A stretch of DNA of 39,019 bases, from the IMG/VR virus record IMGVR_UViG_3300006071_000030; one strand, 5' to 3'. Every line of letters starts with the position of its first letter. The stretch's first letter is position 1. Below, in pieces: positions 2,524 through 38,820 of the stretch. The notes beneath the pieces are model-generated. The model made no database searches, was not told the DNA's origin, and saw only the letters and a program-made list of their open reading frames with translations. Origin of the DNA: a virus. A program made the position numbers and the translations under genes.

Positions 2524-2581
2524 GGATGTCTCCGTTGATTAAATATTACACGTTCTACTAATTAGTGCAATATCTATTGTG

Positions 2582-4963: not shown

Positions 4964-4975
4964 CAATTAGTCTTT

Positions 4976-5158: not shown

Positions 5159-5167
5159 AAGTTATCC

Positions 5168-8100
5168 TTAAGCTTGAGGTTCGTTCCAAGAGATACGACC
5201 CAAAAGCTGCACACCAACACCATTAAGGTTCTGGGCAACTAGAGTCAATGTATCTGGACCATCTGGGTAGATGTTCTTATCAGGTGTAGCGAGTGCTGCA
5301 ACAGTAGAAGTACCACCGTTGAGGACACTGTTACCAAGGTCGCGGACACCGGCAACGTTAACTTCCTGTGTGGTGTCTACAAAGAAACCACCGGTAACTT
5401 CACCAGCAGCCAAACCACTAGCAACCGTAACACCATTGGGTACAGAAGAGTAGTCAGCAATCTGGCTAAGCGATGAGTTCGGGCTGTTTGTACCAGCGAC
5501 GACGTTTGTCCACTGTGGCAATGTTCCACCATTGATAAGCTGTGGCACGCCATTCAAGTAAGCCTTGATAAGCACGTTACCGGCACCAACCCCCTGTGTA
5601 CCAGTAACCGTAACTGACACGTCAAGCGTCTGCAGCTGCAACTGAACTCGGTTAGCCAGTTCGTGTGATCCAAGGATAGAACTTGTTTGGCTGTTGTCAA
5701 CGCTAGGGGCAATACGAATCGACATCAGAGCCTTGGTCTGACCAGAAGCCAACGTAATTGGAGTAGTCTGACCATAGGTGAACAAAAGGTTGGCGTCAGG
5801 CGAGAAACCACCATCCATTGTTACTGCAGTACCCCAGTGGCTAAAGTATGGGCTGTGCGTAGGCATTGCCAACTCAACCGTAGTGGGTGCGGTAGCAGAG
5901 TATGAGAATGCAGTTCCTGCAAGTCCCATAGCCTGCACTGGAACCGTTGCGCTGGCGTTAGTCGATACAGAAGCATTGCTAAACGTAATGAAGTTACCGC
6001 TGATGGAAGCAACGTATGTGTTGTCGGGGAACAACGTCGGTGCAGTAACCTTAGAACCAATTGCAACACCGGTAATAGTTCCGCTACCAATTGGGCTACC
6101 AGACGTTAAAGAAAGCGTCAGGGAAGCAGGGGTAGCAATACCACGTGTCAAACCACCGAAGCTGCTAGCAGTTACAGTTGTGTAATTAACGTATTCAACA
6201 CCAGTCGTGGCGTTCTTGATCGCAAGAGTGCCTGATGCAGGGAATGCGCTATTGCCAGCTGGATTCAGCGTATTGTTAACATAGATTGTGGTGTCTGTTG
6301 CACCGATGCCAGATGTGGTAGTGGTAATTGGTGGGATCGTAGATGTTTCGTAACGACCCGGCAAGTTACCAGAGCGCATGTAGGCAGTGGTGTTGATGTT
6401 GTTGTTAGCCAGCTTGTGGCAGAACATGATGTTACCATCAGTAGTTCTCAGGCCCCAACGCACGAAACCAGCTCCGTACCACGAGTAGTCAAGGTACCAC
6501 ATCTGCATCTTGGTAAGGTCAAGCTTGTAACCGCTAGGTCCAGTTCCATCAAGTTTGTCGATGTTCCATTGCGACTGTGGCACACGGTTGTCGACAGTGG
6601 CTGTAACAGTCACGTAGTTGGCAGTAATACCACGGTAAGCAGGGCTAATGGTGATCTGCGTATCGCTAGCGATATCAGTAACACGGTAAGAGCTACCACG
6701 GATAACAATGTACTGACCAGGGGTCAGCTGCTTGCTAAAGATGGTTGGGAAATTGCCATCGGTTGCAGTAACCGTTGTGCTACCGTTTGTTACAGTTGCA
6801 CGACCAGCAACCTGCTTAATTGAGCTACGAAGAACAGCGTAAAGCTGCTGACCATCGTACTCGAAGAACATGCCATTTTCTTGGTTGAAAAGACCCATTC
6901 TCTGTACAGCACCGTACCAACCATTAACTGTGCAAATAAAGTTTGCAGGATAATCAGATGGTGAAGTATTGCCAAGAGTACCAGTAGCAGTAATAGTGAA
7001 CTGAGTGGCATTAAGAATGTTGGCAATAGGGTATGTGCCGTTGTAACCACTAGTAATTACACCAGCGATATTTACACTTGTACCAGGGGTAAGGTTGTGC
7101 TGTTCACGAGTTGTTACGGTGATCGTCGAACCAGGAGTTGTGCCAGTGGCAGAAATACCATCAACAGTGAATGCAGTGTTAAGGATCGTACCGGTGGCCA
7201 TTTCAAGACCCTTACCAGACTGGTAGTGGAAGTTACGACGGGTTTGACGAATAGCAGATTGGTGGTTGCTCAAGCTTTGTGGTCCGAACAGCACACCACC
7301 GTCAAATGGACGCTGAGCGAACAAAGATTGGTTGCGAGGAGTGATTGAACCACCGGTAGGAGTACCACCAGGTGCGCTCAATGCATAGTAGGTAAGACCG
7401 CTAGCACTGGTAATACCAGTTACATAGAAGTTACCATTCGCAGCAGATTGGCTAGTACCGCTAACGCTAATTTCATTACCAATGCTCAGGCCATGAGGAA
7501 CGGTTGTCGTTACAGTAATCAAGTTACTTGAGTTGGTAAACGTTGGTGTACCGCCGATAGCAGCACCGGTGTAGTACTGCTGCTGCCAGACCTGAGTCTT
7601 AAATGGGTCAAAGAAACCCGAAGTACCACTAGGAGTACCAAATGTGTTTACTGTCTTGGCAGAGTAAGTGAACGAGTTTGTGCCGCTTGTTTCTACGATG
7701 AAGTTACCGTTGGCTGGAGCGAAGAAAGCATCTTGCACAGAGAATGGTGTGCCTGTGGCAAGGCCGCCACCACTTGTAAGAACAGTCACTGTCTTGCTGT
7801 TGGCACTCATAGTCATACCAGTTACGGTAAGACCATTAGTAGCCAGCGAAATTGGTGGGTACATGTTATAACCAGCAGGGTGCCAGTTAGTTGTGCCGAG
7901 AGCTTCCCACTTAGAAGTCTGGTTACCATACTCAAAGTCGGTGTCAATCATCGACTGAGGTGTAGAGACGCGTTGCTTACCCACTGGGTCGTAAAGCTCT
8001 TCCACAGGAACTGTGCGTTGAGCATATTCATCAACTGTGATAGTGATCTTGTCGGTGGCAAGCATGCCAGATGTACCGCCGTTGAACACAACAGTAGTTA

Positions 8101-18389: not shown

Positions 18390-18481
18390 CGTGTTACTCC
18401 TTATACTGTTCCCTTAGGAACGCTGGACAGTAGGCAATATATGCCTAATACCTGTTATAAGATAGAGCATGTTTTAAATGG

Positions 18482-18562
18482 TCGATGGGGAGAGATTCGA
18501 ACTCCCGTACCCGAAGGATCTGGTTTACAGCCAGACGCGATTGGCCACTCCGCCACCCATCG
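18482..18562 (-). tRNA. tRNA-Tyr (GTA), long variable arm, no encoded CCA
   Basis: Folded by hand: acceptor CGATGGG/CCCATCG, D-arm GCGG/TCGC, anticodon stem TCTGG/CCAGA with loop CTGTAAA, a 12-nt variable arm, and T-arm GGGAG-TTCGAAT-CTCTC. Confidence 0.75.
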
Positions 18563-18567
18563 ATTTG

Positions 18568-18638
18568 CTGAGGGAGAAGGACTCGAACCTTCAACAAAAG
18601 CTCCAAAGGCTCCCGTGTTGCCATTACACCATCCCTCA
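18568..18638 (-). tRNA. tRNA-Gln (TTG)
   Basis: Acceptor TGAGGGA/TCCCTCA, T-arm GAAGG-TTCGAGT-CCTTC, anticodon loop CTTTGGA. The anticodon stem has two G-U pairs. Confidence 0.6.
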
Positions 18639-18660
18639 ATGTTTATTGCATGGCATGCAG

Positions 18661-18747
18661 CGGAATGAGTAGGATTCGAACCTACGGAGGCTTTGATACC
18701 TCGCCGGTTTAGCAAACCGGTGCTTTCGACCACTCAGCCATCATTCC
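18661..18747 (-). tRNA. tRNA-Ser (GCT), long variable arm
   Basis: Acceptor GGAATGA/TCATTCC, anticodon stem CCGGT/ACCGG with loop TTGCTAA, long variable arm, T-arm GTAGG-TTCGAAT-CCTAC. Confidence 0.75.
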
Positions 18748-18752
18748 TTATG

Positions 18753-18824
18753 CTCCCAGGGTAGGGATCGAACCTACGACCGAGCGATTAACAGTCGCTT
18801 GCTCTGCCGCTGAGCTACCTGGGA
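18753..18824 (-). tRNA. tRNA-Asn (GTT)
   Basis: Acceptor TCCCAGG/CCTGGGA, D-arm GCTC/GAGC, anticodon stem AGCGA/TCGCT with loop CTGTTAA, T-arm GTAGG-TTCGATC-CCTAC. Confidence 0.75.
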
Positions 18825-19192: not shown

Positions 19193-19490
19193 TGTTTATT
19201 CCTTTGTCATCGATGTAAAAATCAGCAGAAGGTTTACCCATGATTAGATGATGGTACTTACAACCCCATTGCTTAAGCTGACGCTCCGTAATGTCACGGA
19301 AAAGTATTTCTACAAGCTTTGGGTCATTATTTGTCCTATGCATACCTCGAGCCGTAAAATAAACGACTGTATGACCCTCTGAATAAAGCTTGTTTATCTG
19401 ATCAATACGTTCTTGAACAGGCAGTGCATTTTCATACTTACCATCAGTAAGTGTGCAGATGGTGCCATCAATATCTACAACGTATCTCAT
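19173..19490 (-). CDS. HAD-superfamily phosphatase (GmhB-like heptose bisphosphate phosphatase candidate)
   Basis: HAD motif I VDIDGT, motif II Thr in FTAR, motif III GKP, motif IV YIDDKG. Only 105 aa. Confidence 0.55.
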   Translation of the reverse strand: MRYVVDIDGTICTLTDGKYENALPVQERIDQINKLYSEGHTVVYFTARGMHRTNNDPKLVEILFRDITERQLKQWGCKYHHLIMGKPSADFYIDDKGINSDDFFE

Positions 19491-19876
19491 CGTTCTAAGA
19501 TCCTAGTGGTTGAATAAGGCTCAAGTCTAGTGAAATAATCAATCTTCTTTGCGTACTCTTTACCAGGGAAGTCCTTGCCGAACCAGTCAGCACCAGCAAA
19601 CCAGATATCTGGGGATAAAGCCTTGACGATATTGATCAGTTCTTCATCTGAGTCAAAGAGTAGCGTTTGATCAACATACTTAAAAGCATCAATAACAAAT
19701 TGTCTATCATACTGATTATGGAAAGGTCGATCAGAGCCTTTCTTCTCTTTTACACGCCTATCAGTGTCGATAGCAACAGTTAGGGTGTCACCATGCGATT
19801 TGGCATGTTTTAGAAGTGCTACATGGCCTTTATGAATGACATCAAACGTGCCAGTTAAAAAGATCTTCTTATCCAT
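19487..19876 (-). CDS. cytidylyl/adenylyltransferase-like nucleotidyltransferase (HldC / RfaE domain II-like)
   Basis: N-terminal GTFDVIHKGH (H-x-G-H nucleotidyltransferase motif). 129 aa. Confidence 0.6.
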   Translation of the reverse strand: MDKKIFLTGTFDVIHKGHVALLKHAKSHGDTLTVAIDTDRRVKEKKGSDRPFHNQYDRQFVIDAFKYVDQTLLFDSDEELINIVKALSPDIWFAGADWFGKDFPGKEYAKKIDYFTRLEPYSTTRILER

Positions 19877-20654
19877 TTAGATACTCGTCTACAGTCTTGA
19901 ATTTGTAGTCACCCCACTCTGGCTTAGCACAGGTATACGTCTGATACTTGCCAACCAGGTGTTCTGGGAACGGTACATATTCTATAGCACCGTTATAAAG
20001 GTATGCAACTGACTCAGCAACGTCTTTAAAGCTAATTGGGTTGCTTGTGCCAAGATCATAGATGCCAGAAGGCTTATCGTTGTTGAGAACGATTTCAACA
20101 AGGTCATCAACGCAGACAAAGTCTCTCTTGAAGTTCTCTGAGCCTTCAAACAGCTTTAGAGAGCCTGTCTCTTTAATTTGGGCTGAGAACTTGCTAACAG
20201 GGCTTGCCTGGTCACCTTTACGGCCTTCATAATCACCATATACGTTGAAGTAACGAAAACCTTGGATAAGAGAGAACTTATCCATGTTATCTTGCACCCA
20301 GTAGTCAACTGTCAGCTTTGACATAGCATATTGGTTCTTAGGGTTAGGAATACCCTGCAAATCGCCATAAACGGAAGCAGAAGAAGCATACTTAACAGGG
20401 ATACCAAAAGAGATAGCAATCTCAAAGAGGTCTATCGTGTATTCAACGTTCCAGGCATACAGTTTCTTAACATCCTTTTCAGTAGTGCTGGAGATAGCAC
20501 CCTGGTGCAAAATAAGATCAACTTTATCCCATTCTTTAAAGTTATAAAGGAAGTGATAAGCATCTTCTTTATCAATAGGCAATAAAGGCTTGTTAGAAAG
20601 AACCTTGCTAAAGTTTCTACCAATGAAACCTTCTGAACCAGTCAAAATGATCAT
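19869..20654 (-). CDS. NAD-dependent sugar epimerase, extended SDR (HldD / ADP-L-glycero-D-manno-heptose-6-epimerase-like)
   Basis: N-terminal MIILTGSEGFIGRNF (GxxGxxG Rossmann fold). Catalytic YxxxK in NQYAMSK. Confidence 0.6.
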   Translation of the reverse strand: MIILTGSEGFIGRNFSKVLSNKPLLPIDKEDAYHFLYNFKEWDKVDLILHQGAISSTTEKDVKKLYAWNVEYTIDLFEIAISFGIPVKYASSASVYGDLQGIPNPKNQYAMSKLTVDYWVQDNMDKFSLIQGFRYFNVYGDYEGRKGDQASPVSKFSAQIKETGSLKLFEGSENFKRDFVCVDDLVEIVLNNDKPSGIYDLGTSNPISFKDVAESVAYLYNGAIEYVPFPEHLVGKYQTYTCAKPEWGDYKFKTVDEYLNG

Positions 20655-21379
20655 ATCGTTGTAACCCCTCTATGCTTTACCACTTCAGAAGCGCATTTAT
20701 TAGCATACTCAATGCTTTTGATGATATTGCCGCAATTAGCATACTCAACGACAAGTGCTGCCATGAAAGCATCGCCTGCACCTGAGGAGTCCTTGACTTC
20801 TACCTTGTCAACGTGATAACGGTTACCGTTGTACTCGCAACCATCTCCACCCATCGTATGGATGATCTTCTTCTTGAAAGATTCTGTAACTTTGGGGTCA
20901 GAGTTCTTGTATTCGTAATCGTTGATCTTAATGATGAAAGCCTTTTTGGCCCACTTCCCTAGCTTCTTCTTAGTATCGAGGAATACACGTGGGTGTGACT
21001 TACAAATATCTTTGATGTCGTCTTCTGTTAGATAACCTTTGTTATAGTCAGAAATAACTACAATGTCATATTCGCTGTAATCGATATCGTTTTTAAACCT
21101 ACCATAGTTTGGCTCTGTATCGACTCTAATAAACATGTGGTTAGTTGCTTCATGAACGTATCTTGTCTTAGTAATAGACCGCCAATTATGGTTGGTTCTA
21201 ATGTTGACGTCATCCGCAAACTTTTTGATGTTGTTTAACACGTTCAGTGCCATACCAGGATTCTTTACCTCATGCATGGCGTTTAGCACAGGTACTGGAA
21301 TATCGGGTGCAAGACGCATTGCATCACAATAAACAAATACGTCCATGCAACTTTCACCTATTACTAAAATTTTAGTCAT
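20651..21379 (-). CDS. PfkB-family sugar kinase (HldA / RfaE domain I-like heptose-7-phosphate kinase candidate)
   Basis: C-terminal GAGDAF (the PfkB DxxGAGD signature). N-terminal ILVIGESCMDV glycine-rich motif. Confidence 0.6.
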   Translation of the reverse strand: MTKILVIGESCMDVFVYCDAMRLAPDIPVPVLNAMHEVKNPGMALNVLNNIKKFADDVNIRTNHNWRSITKTRYVHEATNHMFIRVDTEPNYGRFKNDIDYSEYDIVVISDYNKGYLTEDDIKDICKSHPRVFLDTKKKLGKWAKKAFIIKINDYEYKNSDPKVTESFKKKIIHTMGGDGCEYNGNRYHVDKVEVKDSSGAGDAFMAALVVEYANCGNIIKSIEYANKCASEVVKHRGVTTI

Positions 21380-21861
21380 TAGAAAATAGGTAAGCCATCT
21401 TTTTTAAGATAGATCATGGCAGGGGCCTTGATCAAATATGCATCAATCATAGCCTTTTCTGTAGCTTCACGGCTAGTAGGAAAGTAACTTTGTACATTTT
21501 TGAATACCGTAGCTAAGCGTTCAGGGTTGAGCGGACGGTGAGTAGGACCATGCGTTGGATAATCAGAATAACCAACCAACATAACAGGCAAGTTTTGTTC
21601 ATCAATATCAATTTTGACTTGCTCATAAGGTCGTTCGATTACAAAAGGAGTAATTGAATAAACTACTGGACGAAACCCATCGATAGCAAGACCAGCAGCC
21701 AAGCTAGTAATTGATTGCTCAGTGAGACCAAGGTTGAAGAACCGTTCAGGAAACTTTTCTTTGAACTCAGTCATCTCTTGCTCTACGTCGCCTGTAATCA
21801 ATACGATGCGATCATCTTTTTCAGCGAGCTTAACGATTGTCTTACCGAATGCTACTCTCAT
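21379..21861 (-). CDS. transketolase C-terminal subunit (pyrimidine-binding domain only)
   Basis: MRVAFGKTIVKLAEKDDRIVLITGDV ... FFNLGLTEQS matches the N-terminus of transketolase C-terminal subunits. Start taken as ATG 21861, just after the upstream stop (ORF track starts at 21918). Confidence 0.6.
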   Translation of the reverse strand: MRVAFGKTIVKLAEKDDRIVLITGDVEQEMTEFKEKFPERFFNLGLTEQSITSLAAGLAIDGFRPVVYSITPFVIERPYEQVKIDIDEQNLPVMLVGYSDYPTHGPTHRPLNPERLATVFKNVQSYFPTSREATEKAMIDAYLIKAPAMIYLKKDGLPIF

Positions 21862-22610
21862 GCCAGTTCCTCCAATGCTTGCTTTTCTAGGTCTCCACCT
21901 AGCCAATTTGAGTGCCATTTAGGTTGGTTTTCCATAAAGCTTACACCCTTACCCTTGATTGTGTTTGCAACAATCAAAGTAGGAGATACTGCAGCTTCAA
22001 AATTGATGTTGATAAGATCATCGTTGTGACCATCAATTTCATGCACTTCCCAACCAGCAGCTTGTGCAGCAGCAATAAGAGCACGGTCTACGGGCATGAT
22101 TTCGTCAACGTACCCAGAACCCTGGATCTTATTGTTATCTACGATAACAACCAAGTTATTGAGCTTTAGGCGTGCAGCAATAAGAATTGATTCCCAAGTA
22201 GTGCCTTCTTGGCATTCGCCATCACCCATAAGAACAAACACTTTTTCATTTGAGTTGTTGAGCTTACGAGCAAGAGCCATCCCCATAGACACTGGGAAAC
22301 CATGTCCCATGCTACCTGCGGTGCAATAAATGCCATTCTCAGGCTCATAATGAGGGTGACCTTCAAGGGTGGGGTTATAACCTTGTTCACGCAAAAGCAC
22401 ATAGTATGACCAGCAGCTGTGCCCCTTGCTCAAAACAAAACGGTCATTCTTTCCCATGATTTTATCAAAAAGATTGATCAGAATTTCAGTACAACTAAAG
22501 CTACCGCCATAATGATAACCACCATTAGCTTTGCTAATCTCAATAGCATCTCTGCGTACTTGCTTTGATCTTTCGTTTAACATTAATTGGCCTTTCCAGA
22601 TAGATTGCAA
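21858..22610 (-). CDS. transketolase N-terminal subunit (TPP-binding)
   Basis: GGYHYGGSFSCTEIL, KGH, GSMGHGFPVSMGMALA and VLMGDGECQEG are classical TPP-binding motifs. An alternative ATG at 22583 would make a TAATG overlap with the upstream gene. Confidence 0.65.
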   Translation of the reverse strand: MQSIWKGQLMLNERSKQVRRDAIEISKANGGYHYGGSFSCTEILINLFDKIMGKNDRFVLSKGHSCWSYYVLLREQGYNPTLEGHPHYEPENGIYCTAGSMGHGFPVSMGMALARKLNNSNEKVFVLMGDGECQEGTTWESILIAARLKLNNLVVIVDNNKIQGSGYVDEIMPVDRALIAAAQAAGWEVHEIDGHNDDLININFEAAVSPTLIVANTIKGKGVSFMENQPKWHSNWLGGDLEKQALEELA

Positions 22611-23149
22611 ATTAGAATTTTTTTATCTTCATCGTAATCAAACTCACATGCGTTGTCATACTCTTTAATATAGTTAATTAATTTTTGCTTTGTAGTTTCT
22701 TCATCACCAAAATCAAGAGCCATACCACTAGAAGAATCACCAAGCAGATCAATATCATCAATCAGAATAGTGTGAGCTTTGCGAGGGCGAGCAAAGATTA
22801 CGTTTAACTCATCCATCAAAGGAACTGCTGGGTGTTCTACATTCGGGTCACCGCTTGCGCTGTGAGCATCGAGCCAGAAATCTAGCGGGACATCATAAGG
22901 CTCAATCATCTCTGATAATTTTTCTTTTGAGTCGCCTAGAAATAACACTACTCTGTTGTCATTATCAAACTTGCTACAACAATTATCGTAGAAAGATTTA
23001 TTGAACTCAACAGTTATAACCTTTTCATAACCAAGACCAAGTGCTATTTCTACTGTATAGCCATGTTGTGTACCAGTTTCTACAAAGATATTATTTCTCT
23101 TATATTTAGAGAACATCAATGTCATTGCTTCTGTGCTTCTATCTGCCAT
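22583..23149 (-). CDS. class I SAM-dependent methyltransferase (FkbM / sugar O-methyltransferase-like)
   Basis: Motif I FVETGTQHGYTV (VxxGxxxG). 188 aa. Acidic C-terminus. Confidence 0.45.
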   Translation of the reverse strand: MADRSTEAMTLMFSKYKRNNIFVETGTQHGYTVEIALGLGYEKVITVEFNKSFYDNCCSKFDNDNRVVLFLGDSKEKLSEMIEPYDVPLDFWLDAHSASGDPNVEHPAVPLMDELNVIFARPRKAHTILIDDIDLLGDSSSGMALDFGDEETTKQKLINYIKEYDNACEFDYDEDKKILICNLSGKAN

Positions 23150-24159
23150 TATTCCATCTCAATCATTATTCTACCGGCAATGCCGCTTCTAAGTGTATCA
23201 AATGCTTCATTTACTTCGTCAAGTTTATATCTGTGAGTAATGAACTCATCAATATAAAGCTTCCCAGCCTTCTCGAGCTTAACATAACGCAAGATATCGT
23301 TAGAAGGATCTGTCTTGCCACCCTGGGTAGCCTTGATACTAAGACCATTACCATTAAAGAAGCTGAGTGCATTGACGATTTCAAGTGACGTTCCTGGCTT
23401 GGGTTGACCCACAAGAATCATTCGGCCATTGTTAGATAGATAGCCAAAGCTCTTCTTAATAACATCGACGTTTCCAGTCGTATCAATAACAACGTCTACT
23501 TTACCTTCAAACTCTGTTTCTGAAGTGTTGTAAAAGAAGTCAGCACCAGCCATGAATGAAAGGTCGCGCTTGCTTTCATTGTTGTCAATAGCAACAATTG
23601 GGCTAAGGCTACGCATAGCTGCACCTTGGATGAGGTTAAGCCCTACACCACCCGTACCGACAACTGCAACGCTTTCACCAAACTTAAAATCGCACTCATT
23701 GTCGATAATACCTAGTGCGGTAGTCAAACTGCATCCAAGGAGCGCAGCGAGGTCATTAGGGGTCTCTGAAGGGACTGTAGTGAGTCGGTTCTCTGACACG
23801 ATAGCCCACTGAGCAAGAGTATTTACCTTGCCACTACTAAAAGTCTTGTCACCAAGGGTGTACTGAGGAAACGCAGCATCGATACCAGTACCTGGTCGCC
23901 AGTGCATAACAACCTTGTCACCTACTTTAACAGTGGTTACTCCAGGGCCAATGTCTTCTACAATGCCACAACCCTCATGACCCATAAGGTGAGGAAGGAA
24001 CTTGCCATTACCCTTGTTGCCATTGATCTCGTGTAGTTGTGAGCCACAGATACCGCTGACAAGGACACGAACCTGTACTTGACCCACTTGGAGCTCAGTA
24101 AGGCCAACATCTTCAATAGAAAGAGGAGCGTTGAGCTCTTTGAGAACGGCAGCCTTCAT
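23149..24159 (-). CDS. Zn-dependent medium-chain dehydrogenase/reductase (ADH / sugar dehydrogenase)
   Basis: GICGSQLHE and GHEGCGIVEDIG (catalytic Zn site). Rossmann motif VVGTGGVGLNLIQG. Confidence 0.7.
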   Translation of the reverse strand: MKAAVLKELNAPLSIEDVGLTELQVGQVQVRVLVSGICGSQLHEINGNKGNGKFLPHLMGHEGCGIVEDIGPGVTTVKVGDKVVMHWRPGTGIDAAFPQYTLGDKTFSSGKVNTLAQWAIVSENRLTTVPSETPNDLAALLGCSLTTALGIIDNECDFKFGESVAVVGTGGVGLNLIQGAAMRSLSPIVAIDNNESKRDLSFMAGADFFYNTSETEFEGKVDVVIDTTGNVDVIKKSFGYLSNNGRMILVGQPKPGTSLEIVNALSFFNGNGLSIKATQGGKTDPSNDILRYVKLEKAGKLYIDEFITHRYKLDEVNEAFDTLRSGIAGRIMIEME

Positions 24160-25007: not shown

Positions 25008-25009
25008 AG

Positions 25010-25083
25010 CGACCTTGATGGGACTCGAACCCACGACCCCCACCGTGACAGGGTGGTGCTCTAACCAACTGAGCTACAAGGCC
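25010..25083 (-). tRNA. tRNA-Asp (GTC)
   Basis: Acceptor GGCCTTG/CAAGGTC (one G-U pair), D-arm GCTC/GAGC, anticodon stem CCACC/GGTGG with loop CTGTCAC, T-arm GTGGG-TTCGAGT-CCCAT. Confidence 0.7.
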
Positions 25084-28547: not shown

Positions 28548-28778
28548 TTAGTTAGCTTTGTAAGCTACAAGTGCCAAGTTCTTTAGGCACTCTTCTGGGG
28601 TGATCCCATTTACGCTTGATAGTTTATTGATAAACACCATCATAACACCAGCAAGTGAGCTGAAGAGTTGGATGGGATCACTCTCGAGGACCATTTCATA
28701 AGCTAGTTCCTCTTGGCCGCTGATGATTGCTGTCATCAAAGCGACTACGTTGCCAATGTTCTCTGTTACAGAATCCAT
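28548..28778 (-). CDS. small hypothetical protein (76 aa)
   Basis: Start chosen at ATG 28778, giving a TAATG overlap with the Dps-like gene stop. The track start at 28814 would overlap by 37 nt. Confidence 0.4.
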   Translation of the reverse strand: MDSVTENIGNVVALMTAIISGQEELAYEMVLESDPIQLFSSLAGVMMVFINKLSSVNGITPEECLKNLALVAYKAN

Positions 28779-29299
28779 TATGCCTCGGTAGACGCCTTCA
28801 AGAACCAACTCCACTTTTGGTGTTGATCAATGCGTTCAGCAATGAAGTTTGCAATACCTTGCTCGTTATCTTTGTCAGCAAGAACAAAGACCTTTTTAAT
28901 GTGATCAATGTATTCGTTATTCATATCTAAGAATTGCTTAGCAAGATTACGTGCATCATCATCGTTAGAACCTACTTCTTTAATTCTACTAAGTCCAGAC
29001 AATTGGCTCATTACAAAAGGAGCTTTAGCATCAAGCTTTCTGATGTTTTCTGCAATTGGGTCAATGTTTTCGTAGATATCATCTACGATCTCATCAAAGA
29101 ACTTGTGATATTGATAGAAGTCATTACCAACAACATTCCAGTGGAAACCATGAATAGTGTGATAGAGAACGTATGCTTCAGCAAGCATTCTTTTCAGAGC
29201 AGTGACCAAATCACTAACATCTTCTTCATATTCTGGGTTTCTAGTGTCGTCTTCTACTTCTGTTGCACTGACGACTCTAAAGCCATTCCAATTGTCCAT
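28778..29299 (-). CDS. dps: Dps / ferritin-like DNA-binding iron-storage protein
   Basis: LYHTIHGFHWNVVGNDFYQYHKFFDEIVDDIYE matches the Dps ferroxidase-centre signature HWNV.G..F..LHE.FEE.Y. 173 aa, typical Dps length. C-terminal WSWFL resembles Dps FLWFIE. Confidence 0.7.
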   Translation of the reverse strand: MDNWNGFRVVSATEVEDDTRNPEYEEDVSDLVTALKRMLAEAYVLYHTIHGFHWNVVGNDFYQYHKFFDEIVDDIYENIDPIAENIRKLDAKAPFVMSQLSGLSRIKEVGSNDDDARNLAKQFLDMNNEYIDHIKKVFVLADKDNEQGIANFIAERIDQHQKWSWFLKASTEA

Positions 29300-32007: not shown

Positions 32008-33087
32008 TTATTCCCAGCTGGTTGGTTTGTCATTGTTAGTTGAATTGAAACGATCTTCATTCAACAAATCAATTAATCTATTGCTGCTACCAGTGATTGG
32101 TCGAGCTGGCGTTGGGAAGTTAGATATAGTTTGTGGGAAATTAAGCTCAAGGTTAATTCCTGCTCCAGGACCAGATGACCCTTTTTCTGGCGTTTGCTTT
32201 GTAGGCATTGGTTCTTGACCAGTTTCAAGCTTAGTTTTCTGTTGTGGTGGGTTACTAGTCTCTTGCTCACTCTTAGTAGAAGTTTCTTCTTCAAGAGAAG
32301 GTTCTGGCATAGCTTCTGTTTTATCACCAATTGTTTTAGGAGCTGGCTGCCAAGTTGTGGGAGATGGTTGTGGTGTGCTAGGAGGAGTCTTTGATGGCTT
32401 ACCAGGAACAGTGAAAGGTGGAACTGTGATTGGCTTAGTAGGAGCCAATGGGTGAGTCTCGAGAGGCATGATGCTACCAACTACGGGGTTAGCAGGGCTT
32501 GCAAAGCTCTGTCCACCACCAGAATCTGGCGTATTGTTGATATCATTGCTATTGTCGCCATTTTCATTACCGCTTGAGTTGCTACTAGGCAAGTTCTTCA
32601 ATGCATCGCTAAGGCCACCACCTTCTGCACCTGCAGCGGCCTCTCCAGCGCCAGCGACTGCTTCTCCAGCACCAAGAAGCTCTGGGATAGCAAGAAGAGG
32701 ACCAGCAGTCACAATTGTGCTTGCTGTGACCATGCGAAGTTCCTTAGCAGCGAACCCCTTACCAGCTTCTGACTGGTAAACTTGGTTATCTGTCAATGCA
32801 TAAGGAATAACGTTAACAGTTGCGTGCGCTTTGCGCAGCATTTCTGTTGCAATGCCTTGGTTTCGGTATTCTGGCTCGACGTAAACACCATCCATGATGT
32901 AGTTGCCACTAGCTTGCTTTTCAGCAGTGAAATAACCGATTCTTTCGTCTCCAACCATTGCTTCAACAAGAAGACCAGAGAACGTGCCACCAGTCTTGTA
33001 TTGCATTGGGCCAACGTTAGCAACAATTCGAACCTTGTCACCTTGTTCTTCAAGGATCTCATTAAGTCTTGGTGGGATAGTAGCCAT
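32008..33087 (-). CDS. GNAT-family N-acetyltransferase domain fused to a Pro/Thr/Ser-rich linker and a C-terminal region
   Basis: GNAT motif A YRNQGIATEML (R-x-x-G-x-A). C-terminal roughly 200 aa is Pro/Thr/Gln-rich and disordered. Confidence 0.55.
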   Translation of the reverse strand: MATIPPRLNEILEEQGDKVRIVANVGPMQYKTGGTFSGLLVEAMVGDERIGYFTAEKQASGNYIMDGVYVEPEYRNQGIATEMLRKAHATVNVIPYALTDNQVYQSEAGKGFAAKELRMVTASTIVTAGPLLAIPELLGAGEAVAGAGEAAAGAEGGGLSDALKNLPSSNSSGNENGDNSNDINNTPDSGGGQSFASPANPVVGSIMPLETHPLAPTKPITVPPFTVPGKPSKTPPSTPQPSPTTWQPAPKTIGDKTEAMPEPSLEEETSTKSEQETSNPPQQKTKLETGQEPMPTKQTPEKGSSGPGAGINLELNFPQTISNFPTPARPITGSSNRLIDLLNEDRFNSTNNDKPTSWE

Positions 33088-33815
33088 TATAGTTTTCCTA
33101 GGTCAGTAGTGAGGTCTTCAAGGCGCATATCGCCATATTGACCCTTTTCAACAATCTCTGGAGTGATGAGAGCCCAGCTCTCTTCCATGTAGCTTTGCAG
33201 CCATCTCCACGTTACCTTCTGCACTTTACCCCAGGTAATACATTCAGCGTAGTCCTTGTCGTAACCTACGAGGATGACACAGTGGCCACCTTCGATCTGA
33301 TTGTCAGCAGGAGTGCCTGTAAGGTCCCATGGCTGGTTGTCAAGGAATTGCTGCTGGAAGGTGACTGGGAGCTTTACACCAATGTATACAAGCCCATATG
33401 AGGCAATTACGCTACGGAGCTCATCAAGGTCAGCATGGTCAGTAGGGGCGAACGCAGCAAGCTTTGTGTTGAACAAGCCGTTGGTCTGCCAGTACTTTAG
33501 TAGGTCCGCCTCGACCGCTCCAGCATCTTGTCCATTCGTATAATTGAGATAACTTTGCTCGACTTCGGTGTCAGAAGGGAATCCTTCTGTAAGTTGTAAG
33601 AAAGCAGCGTTAGCCATTCTGGCGTGAACAATACCAGCAAAAGTACAATCCCCATATTTATCATTTCCTAACATTCCCCAATTATCTACGTTTGGCACTG
33701 CTACGCTCTCTGGTGCAGCTGGCAACGGGTTGCCCTGATAGAAAGCAAGCATGTGCAACCCAGCAGGGCGCTTAGGATCTAGCTTACCTAATTTACCAAC
33801 AATACGATCAGTCAT
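33087..33815 (-). CDS. papain-like (C1-like) cysteine peptidase candidate
   Basis: Candidate catalytic Cys in KYGDCTFAG and His in EGGHCVILVGYD, about 137 aa apart as in papain, followed by ITWGKV. ATG at 33815 immediately follows the upstream stop. Confidence 0.4.
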   Translation of the reverse strand: MTDRIVGKLGKLDPKRPAGLHMLAFYQGNPLPAAPESVAVPNVDNWGMLGNDKYGDCTFAGIVHARMANAAFLQLTEGFPSDTEVEQSYLNYTNGQDAGAVEADLLKYWQTNGLFNTKLAAFAPTDHADLDELRSVIASYGLVYIGVKLPVTFQQQFLDNQPWDLTGTPADNQIEGGHCVILVGYDKDYAECITWGKVQKVTWRWLQSYMEESWALITPEIVEKGQYGDMRLEDLTTDLGKL

Positions 33816-33817
33816 TA

Positions 33818-34186
33818 TTATCTCCCATAAACATCTTTCCATTGACTAAAAGTCAAACCAGTTTTGCCTGCAAGGAACGAGTGAGTGTTGCAATATGGCC
33901 TTGGCACTGAAGAATCAGACCAATGCATGTATTTTGCTTCGTACTTCTTACCTTGGCAGTCGCCATGAGCACATGCAGCCATACCCTTGCGGTCTACGTA
34001 AGGTGCTTTCCTAGTTTTCTTAGGAGGCTCTGGCTGTGGGTTCTCTGCTAAGTACTTCTGCGTGTTCTCGCAATCGGTAGTGTCTTTGCACCTACCGCTG
34101 CTAACGATTGTGTGGGTGCCATCATCTGATGCACCACAGAGCTGACATTGGTCAGGACGAGCAGCGTAACGTTCTGACCAAGACAT
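33818..34186 (-). CDS. Cys-rich hypothetical protein; member of the N-terminal W-x-x-RYAA motif family
   Basis: Begins MSWSERYAAR. Contains CQLCGA, CKDTTDC, CAHGDC. TAATG overlap with the upstream gene. Confidence 0.55.
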   Translation of the reverse strand: MSWSERYAARPDQCQLCGASDDGTHTIVSSGRCKDTTDCENTQKYLAENPQPEPPKKTRKAPYVDRKGMAACAHGDCQGKKYEAKYMHWSDSSVPRPYCNTHSFLAGKTGLTFSQWKDVYGR

Positions 34187-34641
34187 TAGAAGTATTTCTG
34201 TCGTTCTGACGGAGTCATCTTGCCTGATTTTGCTACAGCAGCATCGTGGCTCAGCGGTGTTGGGTTGGGGTTATGACGTCCATTGACTATTGTTTCTCCA
34301 ACTGATCTAAGCAAGCTATAGTGATTGGGAATAACATTTTTGTTGAGAGCGTCAATCGCTTCATCATGTGTAGCTAGCAGTCTGGGCTCTAAAGCTTCTG
34401 GGCCACCAAGCCATGGATCATTGCGTGCACGTGCACTAACATATAAACTGATATTGTGACCCTGGGTATAGGCATGCATCATTTCGTCTTCGGTAATACC
34501 GTGTCGCCTAGCATCATCAACATGCTTCTTTTGAATAAGCTTGGGGTTGCCTGAGTTGGCGTGATCAATCAGCTTCTCAAAGTAGTGTGGATCACCATAA
34601 CCAAAGGTATCTTCAGCTGCGTATCTTCTTTTCCAATTCAT
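34186..34641 (-). CDS. hypothetical protein; member of the N-terminal W-x-x-RYAA motif family
   Basis: Internal Met gives MNWKRRYAAED. TAATG overlap with the upstream stop at 34641. The ORF track extends to 34662. Confidence 0.5.
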   Translation of the reverse strand: MNWKRRYAAEDTFGYGDPHYFEKLIDHANSGNPKLIQKKHVDDARRHGITEDEMMHAYTQGHNISLYVSARARNDPWLGGPEALEPRLLATHDEAIDALNKNVIPNHYSLLRSVGETIVNGRHNPNPTPLSHDAAVAKSGKMTPSERQKYF

Positions 34642-34832
34642 TAATCTTCTCCAAGGATCCAATCGGCTACTTCTTTACTGCGTGAGTGTTCTTGTCCAAT
34701 AGATGGCCCTTCTTGTCTACTCAGTTCAGAAATAATGTGTTTTTCTGCTTCAGTAGTGTTAGGGCATTGCAGTTTAGGCCAGCCATGGCATGAACAGCTT
34801 TCTGCTGCGTATCTTTTAGACCAATTACTCAT
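34641..34832 (-). CDS. small hypothetical protein (63 aa); member of the N-terminal W-x-x-RYAA motif family
   Basis: Begins MSNWSKRYAAE, followed by SCSCHG...C. Confidence 0.45.
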   Translation of the reverse strand: MSNWSKRYAAESCSCHGWPKLQCPNTTEAEKHIISELSRQEGPSIGQEHSRSKEVADWILGED

Positions 34833-35251
34833 TTGATGAGTCCTCTCACGTATTTTGCTGCCTCAAAGTCACTGTAAGCTGTGACGTGTTTGCCACCATG
34901 ACCTCTGTGGTGGAAAAGGCATAGCCATTCCAGGTTTGTTGCGCTCTCTACCCATGCACCAACGGTGTCTGGGTCGCTAACGCCGGGGTAATCGACTTCG
35001 AGCCACTTAAGATCGACGCCATTCTGCAATGAGAACTCAATATGAGTGTGGTGAAGCTCCAAAGGGTGCTCAGAGTCGCACTCACTGAAGTCATTGCGGT
35101 GTTCACCGATAGCACATTTAGCTGTTGCCTTCGTTTTCTCACGGAAATGGTGAAAATCGACGTAATGTGGGTCATCTTCACGCTCTGGGTGAGGTGGATA
35201 GTGAACGGTGTAATGATGAGTGATGTTCTGGTCGTGTTCTTCGACGGTCAT
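34829..35251 (-). CDS. His-rich protein with HNH-endonuclease-like motif
   Basis: LELHHTHIEF ... NG ... NLEWLCLFHHRGHGGKH fits the HNH pattern HH-x(n)-N-x(n)-NL..LC...H. Includes CAIGEH and C..SEH. Confidence 0.4.
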   Translation of the reverse strand: MTVEEHDQNITHHYTVHYPPHPEREDDPHYVDFHHFREKTKATAKCAIGEHRNDFSECDSEHPLELHHTHIEFSLQNGVDLKWLEVDYPGVSDPDTVGAWVESATNLEWLCLFHHRGHGGKHVTAYSDFEAAKYVRGLIK

Positions 35252-35643
35252 TAGTCTTTTTCCCTTCTATCTTGCTGAAGGTAGTCAATAACTTCGTCTA
35301 AACTGCCAAAAACGCGTATATCATCTTCATATTCGTCGTTATCTAGGTCAAAATCGTCTTCATCTGACGAAAAAAGCTCTTCCATGATCATCTGGAAAGC
35401 AGAAAAGGTGATTTCTCTTGAATATTCTACAAAAACACCGTCATGCTGACAGTATTCACTTACGTTAATACGATAAGTGTGGTCTTCATCGTCATCTTTT
35501 GGCTTATCGATGGAGAAATCATCTGAAAGAGAGGAAATCTGGGCAATACTCTCCTTAAACCGGGAGACATATGCACTTTTCTCTGTAGTATCACTGTACT
35601 TTGCTATGTTCTTGCAAGTTTCACAGTCACAGTTGTTTGACAT
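35251..35643 (-). CDS. strongly acidic small protein (130 aa, about 28% Asp+Glu)
   Basis: First gene after a near-consensus sigma70 promoter. AAGGA Shine-Dalgarno. Sequence DDDEDH...SSDEDDFDLDNDEYEDD. Confidence 0.6.
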   Translation of the reverse strand: MSNNCDCETCKNIAKYSDTTEKSAYVSRFKESIAQISSLSDDFSIDKPKDDDEDHTYRINVSEYCQHDGVFVEYSREITFSAFQMIMEELFSSDEDDFDLDNDEYEDDIRVFGSLDEVIDYLQQDRREKD

Positions 35644-35649
35644 GTTTTC

Positions 35650-35715
35650 CTTAGTTATATATATAAGAGGATTTTTTAAATTTTGTCAATAGATTTTAAG
35701 ATAAAACTTTAAAAT
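35650..35715 (-). promoter_or_regulatory. sigma70-type promoter with A/T-rich UP-like element
   Basis: Minus-strand reading: ATTTTAAAGTTTTATCTTAAAATCTA-TTGACA-(18 nt)-TATATA-...AAGGAAAACATG. -35 on plus as tgtcaa 35684..35689; -10 at 35660..35665. Confidence 0.5.
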
Positions 35716-36831
35716 TTATTCGCCAGAGTAGCTATCATCAGCGTGAACAGCTCTATTTATAGCTGTTGAAGGACTGTAAAGGTGAGAAACACCCTCTCCA
35801 CCTCTCGCACGATGACGTACTCTTGGTGCAACTACAGCTGCATGGTTGTCTTCGTCCTGTCTAAAGTTGACATGGTGGTTGATAATGGTCTGTTCAGCCT
35901 TCGTACCATACAAAACACGGTGGTGTGAACGTCTTCCGACCTTACCAAACTCTCCAGCTTCCTTAGAAACGGGGAAACCAGCGAAATAAGCGGCTCTAAT
36001 CTTGGGATCTTGAGTTCTTTTGGCTGCTTCTTCGTGGTGTTGCATGTCCCAAAGCTGGTTTGTGGGGTGAGTACTGTCATTTACAACGCAGTATGGGCAG
36101 AAACACTTAACAAAACGGGCAGTTTTACCCTGATCGATGACATTTTGCTCAACAGGATCGATAGCATCGTGCGTATTGCACATGTTATTGATGGTGTGGT
36201 TGAATGCGTGGTGCACTGCAAGGTCACCATGGGTGTGATCACTGACAGTTTTCATGGCATCTCGGTAGAACTTAGGGTCCTTGATGCCATTACGCTTACC
36301 CTCGTTGAATGCCATGATCGTTTCAATGTGCGATTGGCCCAAAGCTGAGAGTGGGTGGACCATCAAACGCTCACCAGTCTTTGCATTCACGTGTTCACCG
36401 GCACGGAAAGCACGATCATCCAGGTGGCCCTCTTCGCTGGGAGCAATCATCATAGTAGGTTGATGGATACCCTGCTCGAGCTTGTAAGGCTTACCAGTGG
36501 TCTTGTTGCGAACAGCAACGGTCATGTAGTCACTTGCGGTTTTAACGTTGGCAAGCTGCGAGTGAGCGCGACTGTGATACCAGTCGCCCTTTTTGCTTTG
36601 CTTCAAGCCAAACAAACGCACTGCGTCAGGATTGGGCTCTTCGCCCTCACCAAGGCTACCTATGTAGTGATTAGCGGCTTTCTCAGCAGCATGAGGCACA
36701 TGATAGTACTCAGGGTCTTCCTTGTGGGTGGCGTAGCCAGTACCCTCTTGGAAGATAAGCGTCATAGCGTTGGCAGGTCCGCCAGTCTTGAATTGCTTAT
36801 CGTGTTTTGCAGCTTCTCTGCTGTTGAACAT
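35716..36831 (-). CDS. His-rich hypothetical protein (371 aa)
   Basis: Long ORF. Many HxxH/HH motifs and a CFCPYC motif. Confidence 0.6.
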   Translation of the reverse strand: MFNSREAAKHDKQFKTGGPANAMTLIFQEGTGYATHKEDPEYYHVPHAAEKAANHYIGSLGEGEEPNPDAVRLFGLKQSKKGDWYHSRAHSQLANVKTASDYMTVAVRNKTTGKPYKLEQGIHQPTMMIAPSEEGHLDDRAFRAGEHVNAKTGERLMVHPLSALGQSHIETIMAFNEGKRNGIKDPKFYRDAMKTVSDHTHGDLAVHHAFNHTINNMCNTHDAIDPVEQNVIDQGKTARFVKCFCPYCVVNDSTHPTNQLWDMQHHEEAAKRTQDPKIRAAYFAGFPVSKEAGEFGKVGRRSHHRVLYGTKAEQTIINHHVNFRQDEDNHAAVVAPRVRHRARGGEGVSHLYSPSTAINRAVHADDSYSGE

Positions 36832-36937
36832 AAGTTGTACTCCTAGTTAAGTTAAAACAGGCACCGCGCGTCACCGGCCCTAGACCCGATTCCGAATTTT
36901 CTTTTACCCTTATGTTATAAGGGGTTTAGACTCTTAG

Positions 36938-38342: not shown

Positions 38343-38424
38343 TACGCAATGCCGAAATCATCACGTCGGGAGATGTTGTGGTCGTCGTAGGGTGATGCCT
38401 ACGGCCTGATGATGGCAGTCAGCT

Positions 38425-38472
38425 AACTAAACCAGTCCTGAGGAGGACACTATGAAGGAAGTAACAACGATC
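38425..38472 (+). repeat. 48-bp direct repeat copy 1 (RBS + ATG + first 7 codons)
   Basis: aactaaaccagtcctgaggaggacactatgaaggaagtaacaacgatc, identical to 38873..38920. Confidence 0.9.
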
Positions 38473-38820
38473 GACGCTGCTAAGGCTTTGGTTGAGCACT
38501 ACGCTGCTGCGGCTGAGCTCATGACTGCTGAGGCTAAGGCTGAGTACGAGGCTGCTTTGGCTGCGTACGAGGCTGTTGAGGCTAAGTACGAGGCTAAGCA
38601 GGACGCTGCTTGGGCTAAGCGTGACGCTGCTAAGGCTGAGTACTACGCTGCTCAGGCTGAGTTCAAGGCTGCCGAGGCTGAGTTCGACGATGCTTGGGCT
38701 GAGTACCACGCTGCTTTGGCTAAGTACGACGCTGCTTTGTCTAAGCCTGAGGTCAAGGCTGCTTGGGCTAAGTTCTACGCTGCTATGGCTGAGCTCAACG
38801 CTGCTCAGGCTGAGCAGTAA
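38452..38820 (+). CDS. Ala-rich (about 40% Ala) helical repeat protein with periodic aromatic residues
   Basis: GAGGAGG Shine-Dalgarno 7 nt upstream. The sequence is built from degenerate GCT-GAG/GCT-AAG codon repeats. The N-terminus MKEVTTI is shared with the next gene. Confidence 0.6.
   Translation: MKEVTTIDAAKALVEHYAAAAELMTAEAKAEYEAALAAYEAVEAKYEAKQDAAWAKRDAAKAEYYAAQAEFKAAEAEFDDAWAEYHAALAKYDAALSKPEVKAAWAKFYAAMAELNAAQAEQ

What the first reader, a model, noticed from the sequence alone, without database searches (positions are those of the whole stretch)
35251..35715. Near-consensus host-type promoter (perfect TTGACA, UP-like A/T tract) driving a strongly acidic 130-aa protein: candidate early anti-restriction DNA mimic
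**In the sequence.**
- The promoter has a TTGACA -35, an 18-nt spacer and a TATATA -10, preceded by about 26 nt of A/T-rich sequence.
- Next comes an AAGGA Shine-Dalgarno and the gene.
- The protein is about 28% Asp+Glu, with a net charge near -24.
- An HNH-like gene follows immediately.

**From established knowledge.** The first genes transcribed from strong host promoters in many phages are small acidic DNA mimics (Ocr-like) that block restriction, BREX and similar host defences.

**Inference.** The promoter strength, first-gene position and charge density make this a candidate anti-defence factor.
Basis: partly seen in the sequence, partly recalled or inferred. Interest (0 to 1): 0.5.

Follow-up and report, generated by a model that had tools for sequence, protein, structure and literature searches.

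The report
Acidic phage orphan with own promoter
A small, very acidic protein of unknown function in an uncultured freshwater phage has its own promoter-like element, which is conserved across related phages, but nothing found here shows that it is a DNA-mimicking anti-restriction protein.

Summary
- Promoter-like site: TTGACA (35689-35684), an 18-nt spacer, TATATA (35665-35660), AAGGA, ATG at 35643.
- Gene: a 130-aa ORF (35251-35643) with 27.7% Asp+Glu and net charge -23.
- Downstream: an HNH-like ORF that overlaps it by TAATG.

Two claims are overstated. The -10 is 4/6 and lacks the -7 T. The gene is the third of a co-directional cluster, not the first.

Comparative data support a real promoter. 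In 12 related lineages whose proteins are only 26-65% identical, TTGACA and TATA are the only invariant intergenic blocks. The distance from the -35 to the ATG is fixed at 40-41 nt. The pattern occurs once per locus.

The protein belongs to an orphan family of about 26 clusters, found only in one clade of large uncultured phages, probably actinophages. It always lies between a fast-evolving 371-449-aa protein and the HNH-like gene. It has no Pfam, PHROG, PADLOC, PDB or fold match.

The acidity conserved across the family sits in a low-confidence loop and the C-terminal tail. The N-terminal half is neutral or basic in most members.

DNA mimicry or anti-restriction is neither supported nor excluded. 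My best guess, at low confidence, is a fast-evolving effector that uses its acidic loop as a decoy.

The parts
35690..35715 (-). A/T-rich tract upstream of the -35 (UP-element-like). 23 of 26 bases are A or T.
   Evidence: Read directly. The 22 nt upstream of TTGACA are 63-86% A+T in all 12 lineages but are not conserved in sequence.
35684..35689 (-). -35 hexamer TTGACA, a perfect match to the sigma-70 consensus.
   Evidence: Invariant in 12/12 aligned lineages and in all 13 lineages listed.
35666..35683 (-). 18-nt spacer AAATTTAAAAAATCCTCT. Its 3' part (A-run followed by TCYTCT) is partly conserved.
   Evidence: The distance from TTGACA to the invariant TATA is 16-19 nt across lineages.
35656..35665 (-). 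(TA)5 run. TATATA at 35665-35660 is the -10-like hexamer (4/6, no T at position 6).
   Evidence: TATA is invariant in 12 lineages. A TANNNT hexamer at a 17-19 nt spacer exists in 6 of 12 lineages but not in the window's own lineage. The site was not listed by the consensus scan.
35648..35652 (-). Shine-Dalgarno AAGGA, 4 nt before the ATG. If the -10 is used, the predicted leader is only about 9-12 nt.
   Evidence: The distance from the end of the -35 to the ATG is 40-41 nt in 12/12 lineages.
35251..35643 (-). 130-aa acidic protein, a member of an orphan family of about 26 clusters at 50% identity. Predicted elements: helix 8-41, beta-hairpin 57-78, helix 80-90, acidic loop 91-114, helix 115-129.
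34829..35251 (-). 140-aa HNH-like protein. Its start overlaps the acidic gene's stop (TAATG). It is highly conserved: more than 1000 clusters, with the 120 listed at 70% identity or more.
35716..36831 (-). 371-aa His-rich protein of unknown function. It is the constant upstream neighbour of the acidic gene and evolves about as fast.

Best explanation
**Shown**
- 35251-35643 (-) is a real gene for a small acidic protein of an undescribed family. The family is confined to one clade of large uncultured freshwater phages, probably with Actinomycetota hosts.
- The gene has its own sigma-70/SigA-type promoter-like element just upstream: perfect -35, TA-run -10, A/T-rich upstream tract.
- The geometry of that element is held constant across the clade.

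**Inferred**
- Host RNA polymerase starts transcription about 9-12 nt before the ATG. This boosts expression of the acidic gene and of the HNH-like gene coupled to it, on top of any read-through from the two upstream genes.
- The protein has a small alpha/beta core. From it projects a flexible loop of about 24 residues, rich in Asp/Glu with embedded aromatic residues, followed by an acidic tail.
- Its fast divergence, shared with the upstream 371-aa neighbour, suggests that it engages a changing partner.
- The mechanism I consider most likely is that the polyanionic loop occupies the nucleic-acid-binding surface of a host protein, as a decoy. Candidates are a restriction or defence enzyme, a nucleoid protein, or RNA polymerase.
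- The target, and therefore 'anti-restriction', is unknown.
For: **Gene and acidity**
-.

**Family**
- Three clusters in the word-indexed search and 26 representatives in the exhaustive search, all 124-165 aa except two fragments and one repetitive 837-aa protein.
- Acidity of the C-terminal half is conserved across the family: net -12 to -21.

**Promoter**
- TTGACA and TATA are the only invariant intergenic blocks in 12 lineages.
- The -35-to-ATG distance is 40-41 nt in 12/12 lineages.
- The pattern occurs once per locus, always before this gene.
- In L029-L031, other genes are inserted between the acidic gene and the HNH-like gene, and the element stays with the acidic gene.
- There is no conserved RNA fold.

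**Fast evolution**
- Window versus L007: 56% identity for the acidic protein and 52% for the 371-aa protein, against 84-90% for several downstream syntenic genes (others 61-80%).

**Structure**
- pLDDT is 87-95 for residues 61-90 and 56-60 for the acidic loop.

**Host clade**
- The portal protein is about 39% identical to those of cluster C mycobacteriophages.
- The HNH-like family is found mostly in Actinomycetota genomes.
Against: - No promoter activity was measured.
- The -10 lacks the -7 T in the window's lineage, and the spacer is 18 nt.
- Sigma-70-like sites are not enriched in these genomes: 11 found against 14.1 expected, and 13 against 11.2.
- The gene is not first in its cluster, and no terminator separates it from the upstream gene.
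- It is a fixed core-syntenic gene, unlike most anti-defence genes.
- In other actinophages and prophages, the region just downstream (HNH-like gene, then a C39-like peptidase) lies next to lysis genes, which are usually late.
- There is no homology or fold match to any known mimic or anti-defence protein.
- The conserved acidity is in a disordered loop rather than a rigid DNA-shaped surface.
- pTM of the model is only 0.32.
Confidence: 0.35

Rival explanations
1. Ocr-like reading. The protein is a structured DNA mimic made first after infection, and it blocks type I restriction-modification or BREX.
For: It has high Asp+Glu content and net charge -23. It has its own conserved host-type promoter-like element. 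It evolves fast. It lies in a cluster that begins at a divergent control region about 2 kb upstream.
Confidence: 0.12
2. The protein is a partner of the adjacent HNH-like protein: an inhibitor, immunity protein or chaperone, in the manner of the acidic Im proteins of HNH colicins or an antitoxin-first pair.
For: The stop and start codons overlap or abut in most lineages (TAATG in the window). The acidic family is never found without the HNH-like gene within 2 kb.
Against: The HNH-like family is far larger (more than 1000 clusters). It occurs without any acidic-family or 371-aa-family gene within 3 kb in 29 loci from other contigs and bacterial genomes. In L029-L031, 0.6-1.6 kb is inserted between the two genes. 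The HNH-like protein is 65-84% identical where the acidic protein is 26-56% identical, so the two do not diverge in step.
Confidence: 0.15
3. The protein has a phage-internal role unrelated to host defence, such as a replication, assembly or lysis-timing accessory or a transcription factor. On this reading the acidity is an incidental linker and tail composition.
For: Its synteny is fixed as a core gene of the clade. The N-terminal half is a long amphipathic helix that is often basic, and an N-terminal CxCxxC motif is common in the family. The neighbours downstream resemble the HNH-plus-lysin arrangement of actinobacterial prophages.
Against: It is among the fastest-evolving syntenic genes. 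It has a dedicated promoter-like element unlike the other intergenic regions of these genomes. It matches no structural or replication family.
Confidence: 0.3
4. The conserved TTGACA...TATA element is not a promoter. It could instead be an operator for a phage regulator, an A/U-rich translation enhancer, or a processing site in a read-through mRNA.
For: The -10 lacks the -7 T in six lineages. The 3' part of the spacer (A-run followed by TCYTCT) is also conserved, which a plain sigma-70 promoter does not need. No terminator lies upstream, so read-through mRNA probably exists. Part of the conserved block (AACTA..AGGA) is an RBS context shared with other genes of these phages.
Against: The invariant blocks coincide exactly with a -35 hexamer and the first four bases of a -10, 16-19 nt apart, with an A/T-rich tract upstream. 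No RNA structure is predicted or conserved. Rfam has no match there.
Confidence: 0.15

Closest known systems
T7 Ocr (gp0.3), the DNA-mimic inhibitor of type I R-M and BREX
   Same: Both are small (130 vs 117 aa) and very acidic. Both are phage-encoded and lie behind a host-type promoter-like element near the start of a gene cluster.
   Different: There is no sequence or fold similarity. Ocr is a dimer that mimics about 20 bp of bent DNA in shape and surface charge (PMC7261183). Here the conserved charge sits in a flexible loop and tail. The gene is third in its cluster. From my own knowledge, not tested here: Ocr is the first T7 gene transcribed by host RNA polymerase.
ArdA and other folded DNA mimics (T4 Arn; small acidic anti-CRISPRs such as AcrIIA4 and AcrF2)
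   Same: Small acidic proteins of mobile elements that compete with DNA for a host enzyme. Their folds are diverse, so the lack of a fold match does not exclude a similar mode of action.
   Different: No member matches the Pfam ArdA model or any PADLOC or PHROG anti-defence family. The comparison with the anti-CRISPRs rests on my own knowledge and was not tested.
Colicin E-type immunity proteins (Im7/Im9) bound to HNH DNases
   Same: A small acidic protein encoded next to an HNH-type gene, with overlapping or abutting reading frames.
   Different: The gene order is reversed here (acidic gene first). The HNH-like family mostly occurs without it. Divergence of the two proteins is not coupled. 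There is no sequence or fold similarity.
Sigma-70/SigA-type early promoters of phages (for example T7 A1-A3, mycobacteriophage L5 Pleft; named from my own knowledge)
   Same: Perfect TTGACA, a 16-19-nt spacer, a TA-rich -10 region and an A/T-rich upstream tract, all conserved among relatives.
   Different: The -10 is TATATA, without the -7 T, in the window's lineage. The leader would be only about 9-12 nt. The site is internal to a gene cluster. It is a single site rather than one of a set.

Membership tests
Ocr family (Pfam Ocr; T7 gp0.3) | Sequence match to the family profile | tested here: not met
   The Pfam scan of the window protein (E up to 0.1) and of all 25 family members (E up to 1) listed no Ocr model. 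PHROG scans found no shared family.
Ocr family (Pfam Ocr; T7 gp0.3) | Fold: a dimer whose monomers mimic B-DNA in shape and surface charge | tested here: not met
Ocr family (Pfam Ocr; T7 gp0.3) | First gene expressed from strong host promoters at the leading genome end | tested here: not met
   It is the third gene of its cluster, 72 nt after a 371-aa gene with no terminator-like site between. Expression timing was not testable.
ArdA (Pfam ArdA) | Sequence match to the family profile | tested here: not met
   No ArdA hit for any of the 25 members at E up to 1. No PDB sequence hit at E up to 10.
Sigma-70/SigA-type promoter | -35 hexamer close to TTGACA | tested here: met
   TTGACA at 35689-35684. 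Invariant in 12/12 lineages.
Sigma-70/SigA-type promoter | Spacer of 17 +/- 1 nt | tested here: met
   18 nt in the window, 16-19 nt across lineages.
Sigma-70/SigA-type promoter | -10 hexamer TANNNT (A at -11, T at -7) | tested here: not met
   The window has TATATA, and no TANNNT at a spacer of 15-20 nt. Six of 12 lineages do have TATATT or TATAGT at 17-19 nt. The site was not listed by the consensus scan.
Sigma-70/SigA-type promoter | Transcription initiation in vivo or in vitro | not testable with these tools
   No transcript data were available. Only phylogenetic footprinting was possible.
HNH (beta-beta-alpha-Me) nuclease, for the downstream 140-aa gene | Profile match, plus the His...Asn...His core with Cys/His metal ligands | tested here: inconclusive
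   phrog_8048 'HNH endonuclease' at E = 0.004 is the only hit. Pfam, and PDB by sequence, found nothing. Invariant residues C46, H51, C58, H67, H68, H70, N106, C111, H114, H115 and H122 fit the motif by eye. No structure was predicted for it.
Nuclease-immunity or toxin-antitoxin pair | Obligate co-occurrence of the two genes | tested here: not met
   The acidic gene always has the HNH-like gene nearby. The HNH-like gene occurs in 29 loci with no acidic-family ORF within 3 kb.

The most novel reading that the evidence does not exclude
The family is a new class of actinophage counter-defence or host-takeover proteins. On this reading it neutralises a host DNA- or RNA-binding protein with a flexible loop rich in Asp/Glu and aromatic residues, rather than with a rigid DNA-shaped surface. 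It would be expressed from a dedicated, rigidly spaced SigA-type promoter with a near-leaderless transcript, and it would co-evolve with the equally fast-evolving 371-449-aa neighbour as a two-gene module.
Probability: 0.2. Interest if true: 0.6.

Novelty: new member of a known kind. Interest (0 to 1): 0.35.

Why it matters
If the protein proves to be an anti-defence or takeover factor, it would add an undescribed family from a large clade of uncultured freshwater phages, probably of Actinomycetota. Almost nothing is known about defence and counter-defence in that group.

The promoter footprint has practical value on its own. An invariant TTGACA, a TA run and a fixed 40-41 nt to the ATG would give a rare sequence-level view of a promoter used in these uncultured hosts.

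As it stands, this is a well-delimited orphan gene with a credible promoter. It is a reasonable but unproven candidate, not a discovery.

Tried and rejected
- **Cultured relatives.** megablast of the 6-kb region and tblastn of the acidic and HNH-like proteins against 50,697 phage records found no match.
- **Known families.** Pfam, PHROG, PADLOC and PDB sequence searches with single sequences and with the 25-member alignment found nothing consistent.
- **Repeated phage-specific promoter motif.** Rejected. The pattern occurs once in the 39-kb window and once per related locus.
- **RNA element in the intergenic region.** Rejected. RNAalifold predicts 0 pairs over 12 lineages, the single-sequence fold has z = -0.10, and Rfam has no hit there. 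A 4-bp UCCU/AGGA pairing that could mask the SD in read-through mRNA appears in the minimum-energy fold but is not significant.
- **Immunity or antitoxin for the HNH-like protein.** Considered and down-weighted.
- **The upstream 371-aa protein as a clue.** Its family is also restricted to this clade and unannotated.

Full report
**1. What is in the sequence**

The feature is on the minus strand.
- The 371-aa ORF 35716-36831 ends with TAA at 35718-35716.
- A 72-nt intergenic region follows (35715-35644). In order it holds:
  - a 26-nt tract that is 88% A+T (35715-35690);
  - TTGACA (35689-35684);
  - the 18-nt spacer AAATTTAAAAAATCCTCT;
  - a (TA)5 run whose first hexamer is TATATA (35665-35660);
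  - AAGGA (35652-35648);
  - four further bases, then ATG at 35643.
- The ORF 35251-35643 encodes 130 aa with 36 Asp+Glu (27.7%), 13 Lys+Arg, net charge -23 and pI 4.09. It is the most acidic ORF in the window.
- Its TAA shares a base with the ATG of the next ORF (34829-35251, 140 aa).

Two descriptions are not.
- The -10 is only 4/6 and lacks the T at its last position. The consensus scan requires that T, so it did not list the site.
- The gene is not first. Two co-directional ORFs (221 aa and 371 aa) precede it, and no terminator-like site is listed between the 371-aa gene and the promoter-like element. The strand switch, and presumably the main control region, lies at about 37.6-38.2 kb.

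**2. Where the window comes from**

- Nothing similar exists among 50,697 deposited phage records at the DNA level. The acidic and HNH-like proteins also have no tblastn match there.
- The window carries a portal protein about 39% identical to those of cluster C mycobacteriophages.
- It also carries a large virion protein, five tRNA genes, a ferritin-like gene and a set of sugar-nucleotide genes.
- The exact acidic protein is found on freshwater metagenome contigs of up to 131,916 bp.
- The HNH-like protein has relatives in 27 GTDB genome assemblies. Twenty-two of these are named as Actinomycetota, including Mycobacterium, Streptomyces, Kitasatospora and Catenulispora.
- I infer a large uncultured phage with an actinobacterial host. 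No host was identified directly.

**3. Is the promoter-like element more than chance?**

- Within the window, TTGACA-N15-20-TATATA is expected 0.03 times in shuffles. It marks only this site, in two registers, plus an overlapping accidental match on the other strand.
- The longer motif is unique in the window.
- Across 15 related loci, the pattern occurs only at one site per locus, always in front of the acidic gene.
- The strongest evidence is comparative.
  - I collected relatives by protein search, by look-up of encoding contigs and by a scan of viral contigs.
  - In 12 non-redundant lineages the acidic proteins are 26-65% identical to the window's. The only invariant intergenic blocks are TTGACA and TATA, with near-invariant bases in the Shine-Dalgarno.
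  - The spacer sequence varies, but the two blocks stay 16-19 nt apart.
  - The distance from the end of the -35 to the ATG is 40 or 41 nt in all 12 lineages.
  - The 22 nt upstream of the -35 are 63-86% A+T but are not conserved in sequence.
- In L029-L031, other genes are inserted between the acidic and HNH-like genes. The element stays with the acidic gene.
- RNA-level explanations find no support. RNAalifold predicts no pairs, the single sequence folds no better than shuffles (z = -0.10), and Rfam has no match there.
- Caveats:
  - Six of 12 lineages, including the window's, have no TANNNT hexamer at a usable distance.
  - The 3' part of the spacer is partly conserved, which a plain promoter does not require.
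  - Sigma-70-like sites are not enriched in these genomes overall.
  - Part of the conserved block (AACTA..AGGA) is an RBS context shared with other genes of these phages.
- I conclude that this is very probably a real, gene-specific promoter of the host-sigma type. It has a perfect -35, a non-canonical TA-run -10 and a leader of only about 9-12 nt. 'Near-consensus' overstates it, and its activity is untested.

**4. The protein**

- An exhaustive profile search of 1.84 billion representatives found 26 proteins at E up to 0.001. Apart from two fragments and one repetitive 837-aa protein, all are 124-165 aa and match end to end.
- The 25-member alignment shows these features:
  - an N-terminal CxCxxC that is frequent but not universal;
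  - a helix with a conserved FKEN motif;
  - a hairpin-helix unit, YRIxLxE...DG...EYSKEI..F.F..LL.E.FG;
  - an acidic stretch of variable length with an embedded aromatic residue;
  - a conserved VFxSLDEVIDFL helix;
  - an acidic C-terminus.
- Net charge across the family ranges from -8 to -26.
  - The C-terminal half is always acidic (-12 to -21).
  - The N-terminal half is neutral or basic in most members (+9 to -6).
  - The window's lineage is the acidic extreme because its loop 42-56 has also become acidic.
- AlphaFold2 with this alignment gives mean pLDDT 74.3 and pTM 0.32.
  - Confidence is high for residues 61-90 (87-95) and 111-130 (84-87).
  - Confidence is low (56-60) for the acidic loop 91-110.
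  - By my count, about half of the 36 acidic residues lie in predicted coil.
- No known family matches:
  - Pfam
  - PHROGs
  - PADLOC
  - PDB by sequence
  - PDB by fold
  - BFVD
- The protein is thus neither an ordinary enzyme nor a recognisable mimic.

**5. Context**

- In every lineage the order is 371-449-aa protein, then acidic protein, then HNH-like protein.
- The acidic protein and its upstream neighbour are the fastest-evolving conserved genes of the region.
  - Window versus L007: 56% and 52% identity, against 84-90% for several downstream genes, including the HNH-like protein (84%); other downstream genes are 61-80%.
  - In deeper comparisons they are 24-35% identical, against 62-84% for the other conserved genes.
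- The 371-aa family is also clade-restricted and unannotated.
- The HNH-like protein belongs to a very large, highly conserved family: 1045 clusters, with the 120 listed all at 70% identity or more.
- That family occurs in 29 other loci with no acidic or 371-aa relative within 3 kb. There it often sits directly upstream of cell-wall hydrolases.
- The acidic protein therefore needs the HNH-like neighbourhood, but not the reverse. This argues against an obligate immunity or antitoxin relation.

**6. Mechanism**

Shown:
- a real gene;
- a real family;
- conserved promoter geometry;
- fast divergence;
- conserved acidity of a flexible loop and tail.

Inferred:
- Host RNA polymerase initiates just upstream of the SD and raises expression of the acidic gene and the coupled HNH-like gene.
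- The protein uses its polyanionic, aromatic-studded loop to occupy a nucleic-acid-binding site on a partner, most plausibly a host protein.

I put this at about 0.35. The specific Ocr-like reading is a subset, at about 0.12. The rivals are:
- a phage-internal role, about 0.3;
- a partner of the HNH-like enzyme, about 0.15;
- separately, that the element is not a promoter, about 0.15.

**7. Comparison with what is known, and novelty**

- Ocr is a 117-aa dimer that mimics about 20 bp of bent DNA in shape and charge. In that study, several other DNA mimics failed to inhibit BREX, so DNA mimicry alone is not enough (PMC7261183).
- The present protein shares with Ocr only its size, its charge and a host-type promoter-like element. 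It fails the sequence, fold and gene-position criteria for membership.
- It is best described as a new, undescribed family of a familiar kind: a small acidic phage orphan protein with its own promoter.
- Interest is moderate to low until a partner or a phenotype is found. The promoter footprint is the most solid result.

Noticed in passing
window 38350-38424 (+); L007 5738-5799 (-): Type II hammerhead ribozyme matches lie in intergenic regions of the gene cluster that diverges from the acidic-gene cluster. L007 scores 40.0 bits (gathering score 37, E = 1.8e-5). The window copy scores 31.5 bits, below the gathering score (E = 4e-4 to 1.5e-3), but keeps CGAAA, GUC and CUGAUGA. Other intergenic regions of that cluster are long and G+C-rich and appear hairpin-rich by eye.
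   Followed up: partly
window 34829-35251 (-); L016, L017, L033, L042: The 140-aa HNH-like protein belongs to a very large family (1045 clusters; the 120 listed are at least 70% identical) found mainly in Actinomycetota genomes. In several loci it sits directly upstream of cell-wall hydrolases (NlpC/P60 plus GH25, or GH25). In the window the next conserved gene is a weakly C39-like peptidase (33087-33842, phrog_19005). An HNH-plus-lysin association of this kind is unexplained.
   Followed up: partly
window 34641-34832, 34186-34662, 33818-34186 (all -): Three consecutive small ORFs share an N-terminal W-x-x-RYAA motif (MSNWSKRYAAES, MNWKRRYAAED, MSWSERYAARPD). L007 has no comparable genes at this position; only a weak (26%) match to the 63-aa ORF lies elsewhere in that locus. 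So they look like a variable paralogous insertion between the HNH-like gene and the peptidase-like gene.
   Followed up: no
window 19487-24159 (-): A cluster of sugar-nucleotide or carbohydrate-metabolism genes: cytidylyltransferase-like, NAD-dependent epimerase, PfkB kinase, a split transketolase (N-terminal and pyrimidine-binding parts as separate ORFs) and a zinc alcohol dehydrogenase. Such a cluster might serve DNA or virion glycosylation.
   Followed up: no
window 18479-18824 and 25009-25083 (-); 28778-29299 (-): Five tRNA genes (Tyr, Gln, Ser, Asn, Asp) and a ferritin/Dps-like gene.
   Followed up: no
window 38452-38820 (+) and from about 38900 (+): Tandem paralogous ORFs begin with MKEVTTI. 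The first is a 122-aa Ala/Glu/Lys-rich repetitive protein. Each is preceded by the same repeated stretch of about 48 nt containing GTCCTGAGGAGGAC.
   Followed up: no
window 36832-36937 (-); L007 8601-8700: By eye, the intergenic region upstream of the 371-aa gene is much better conserved between the window and L007 than the flanking proteins (about 52% identity). Its fold is no better than shuffles (z = 0.50) and Rfam has no match. The reason for the conservation is unknown.
   Followed up: partly
L007 intergenic regions 1571-6133 (-); window 36832-36850 and 35648-35660: Many genes of these phages share the RBS context AACTAGTAGGAG or AACTAAGGA directly before the start codon. Part of the conservation near the acidic gene's SD is therefore a genome-wide feature.
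   Followed up: no
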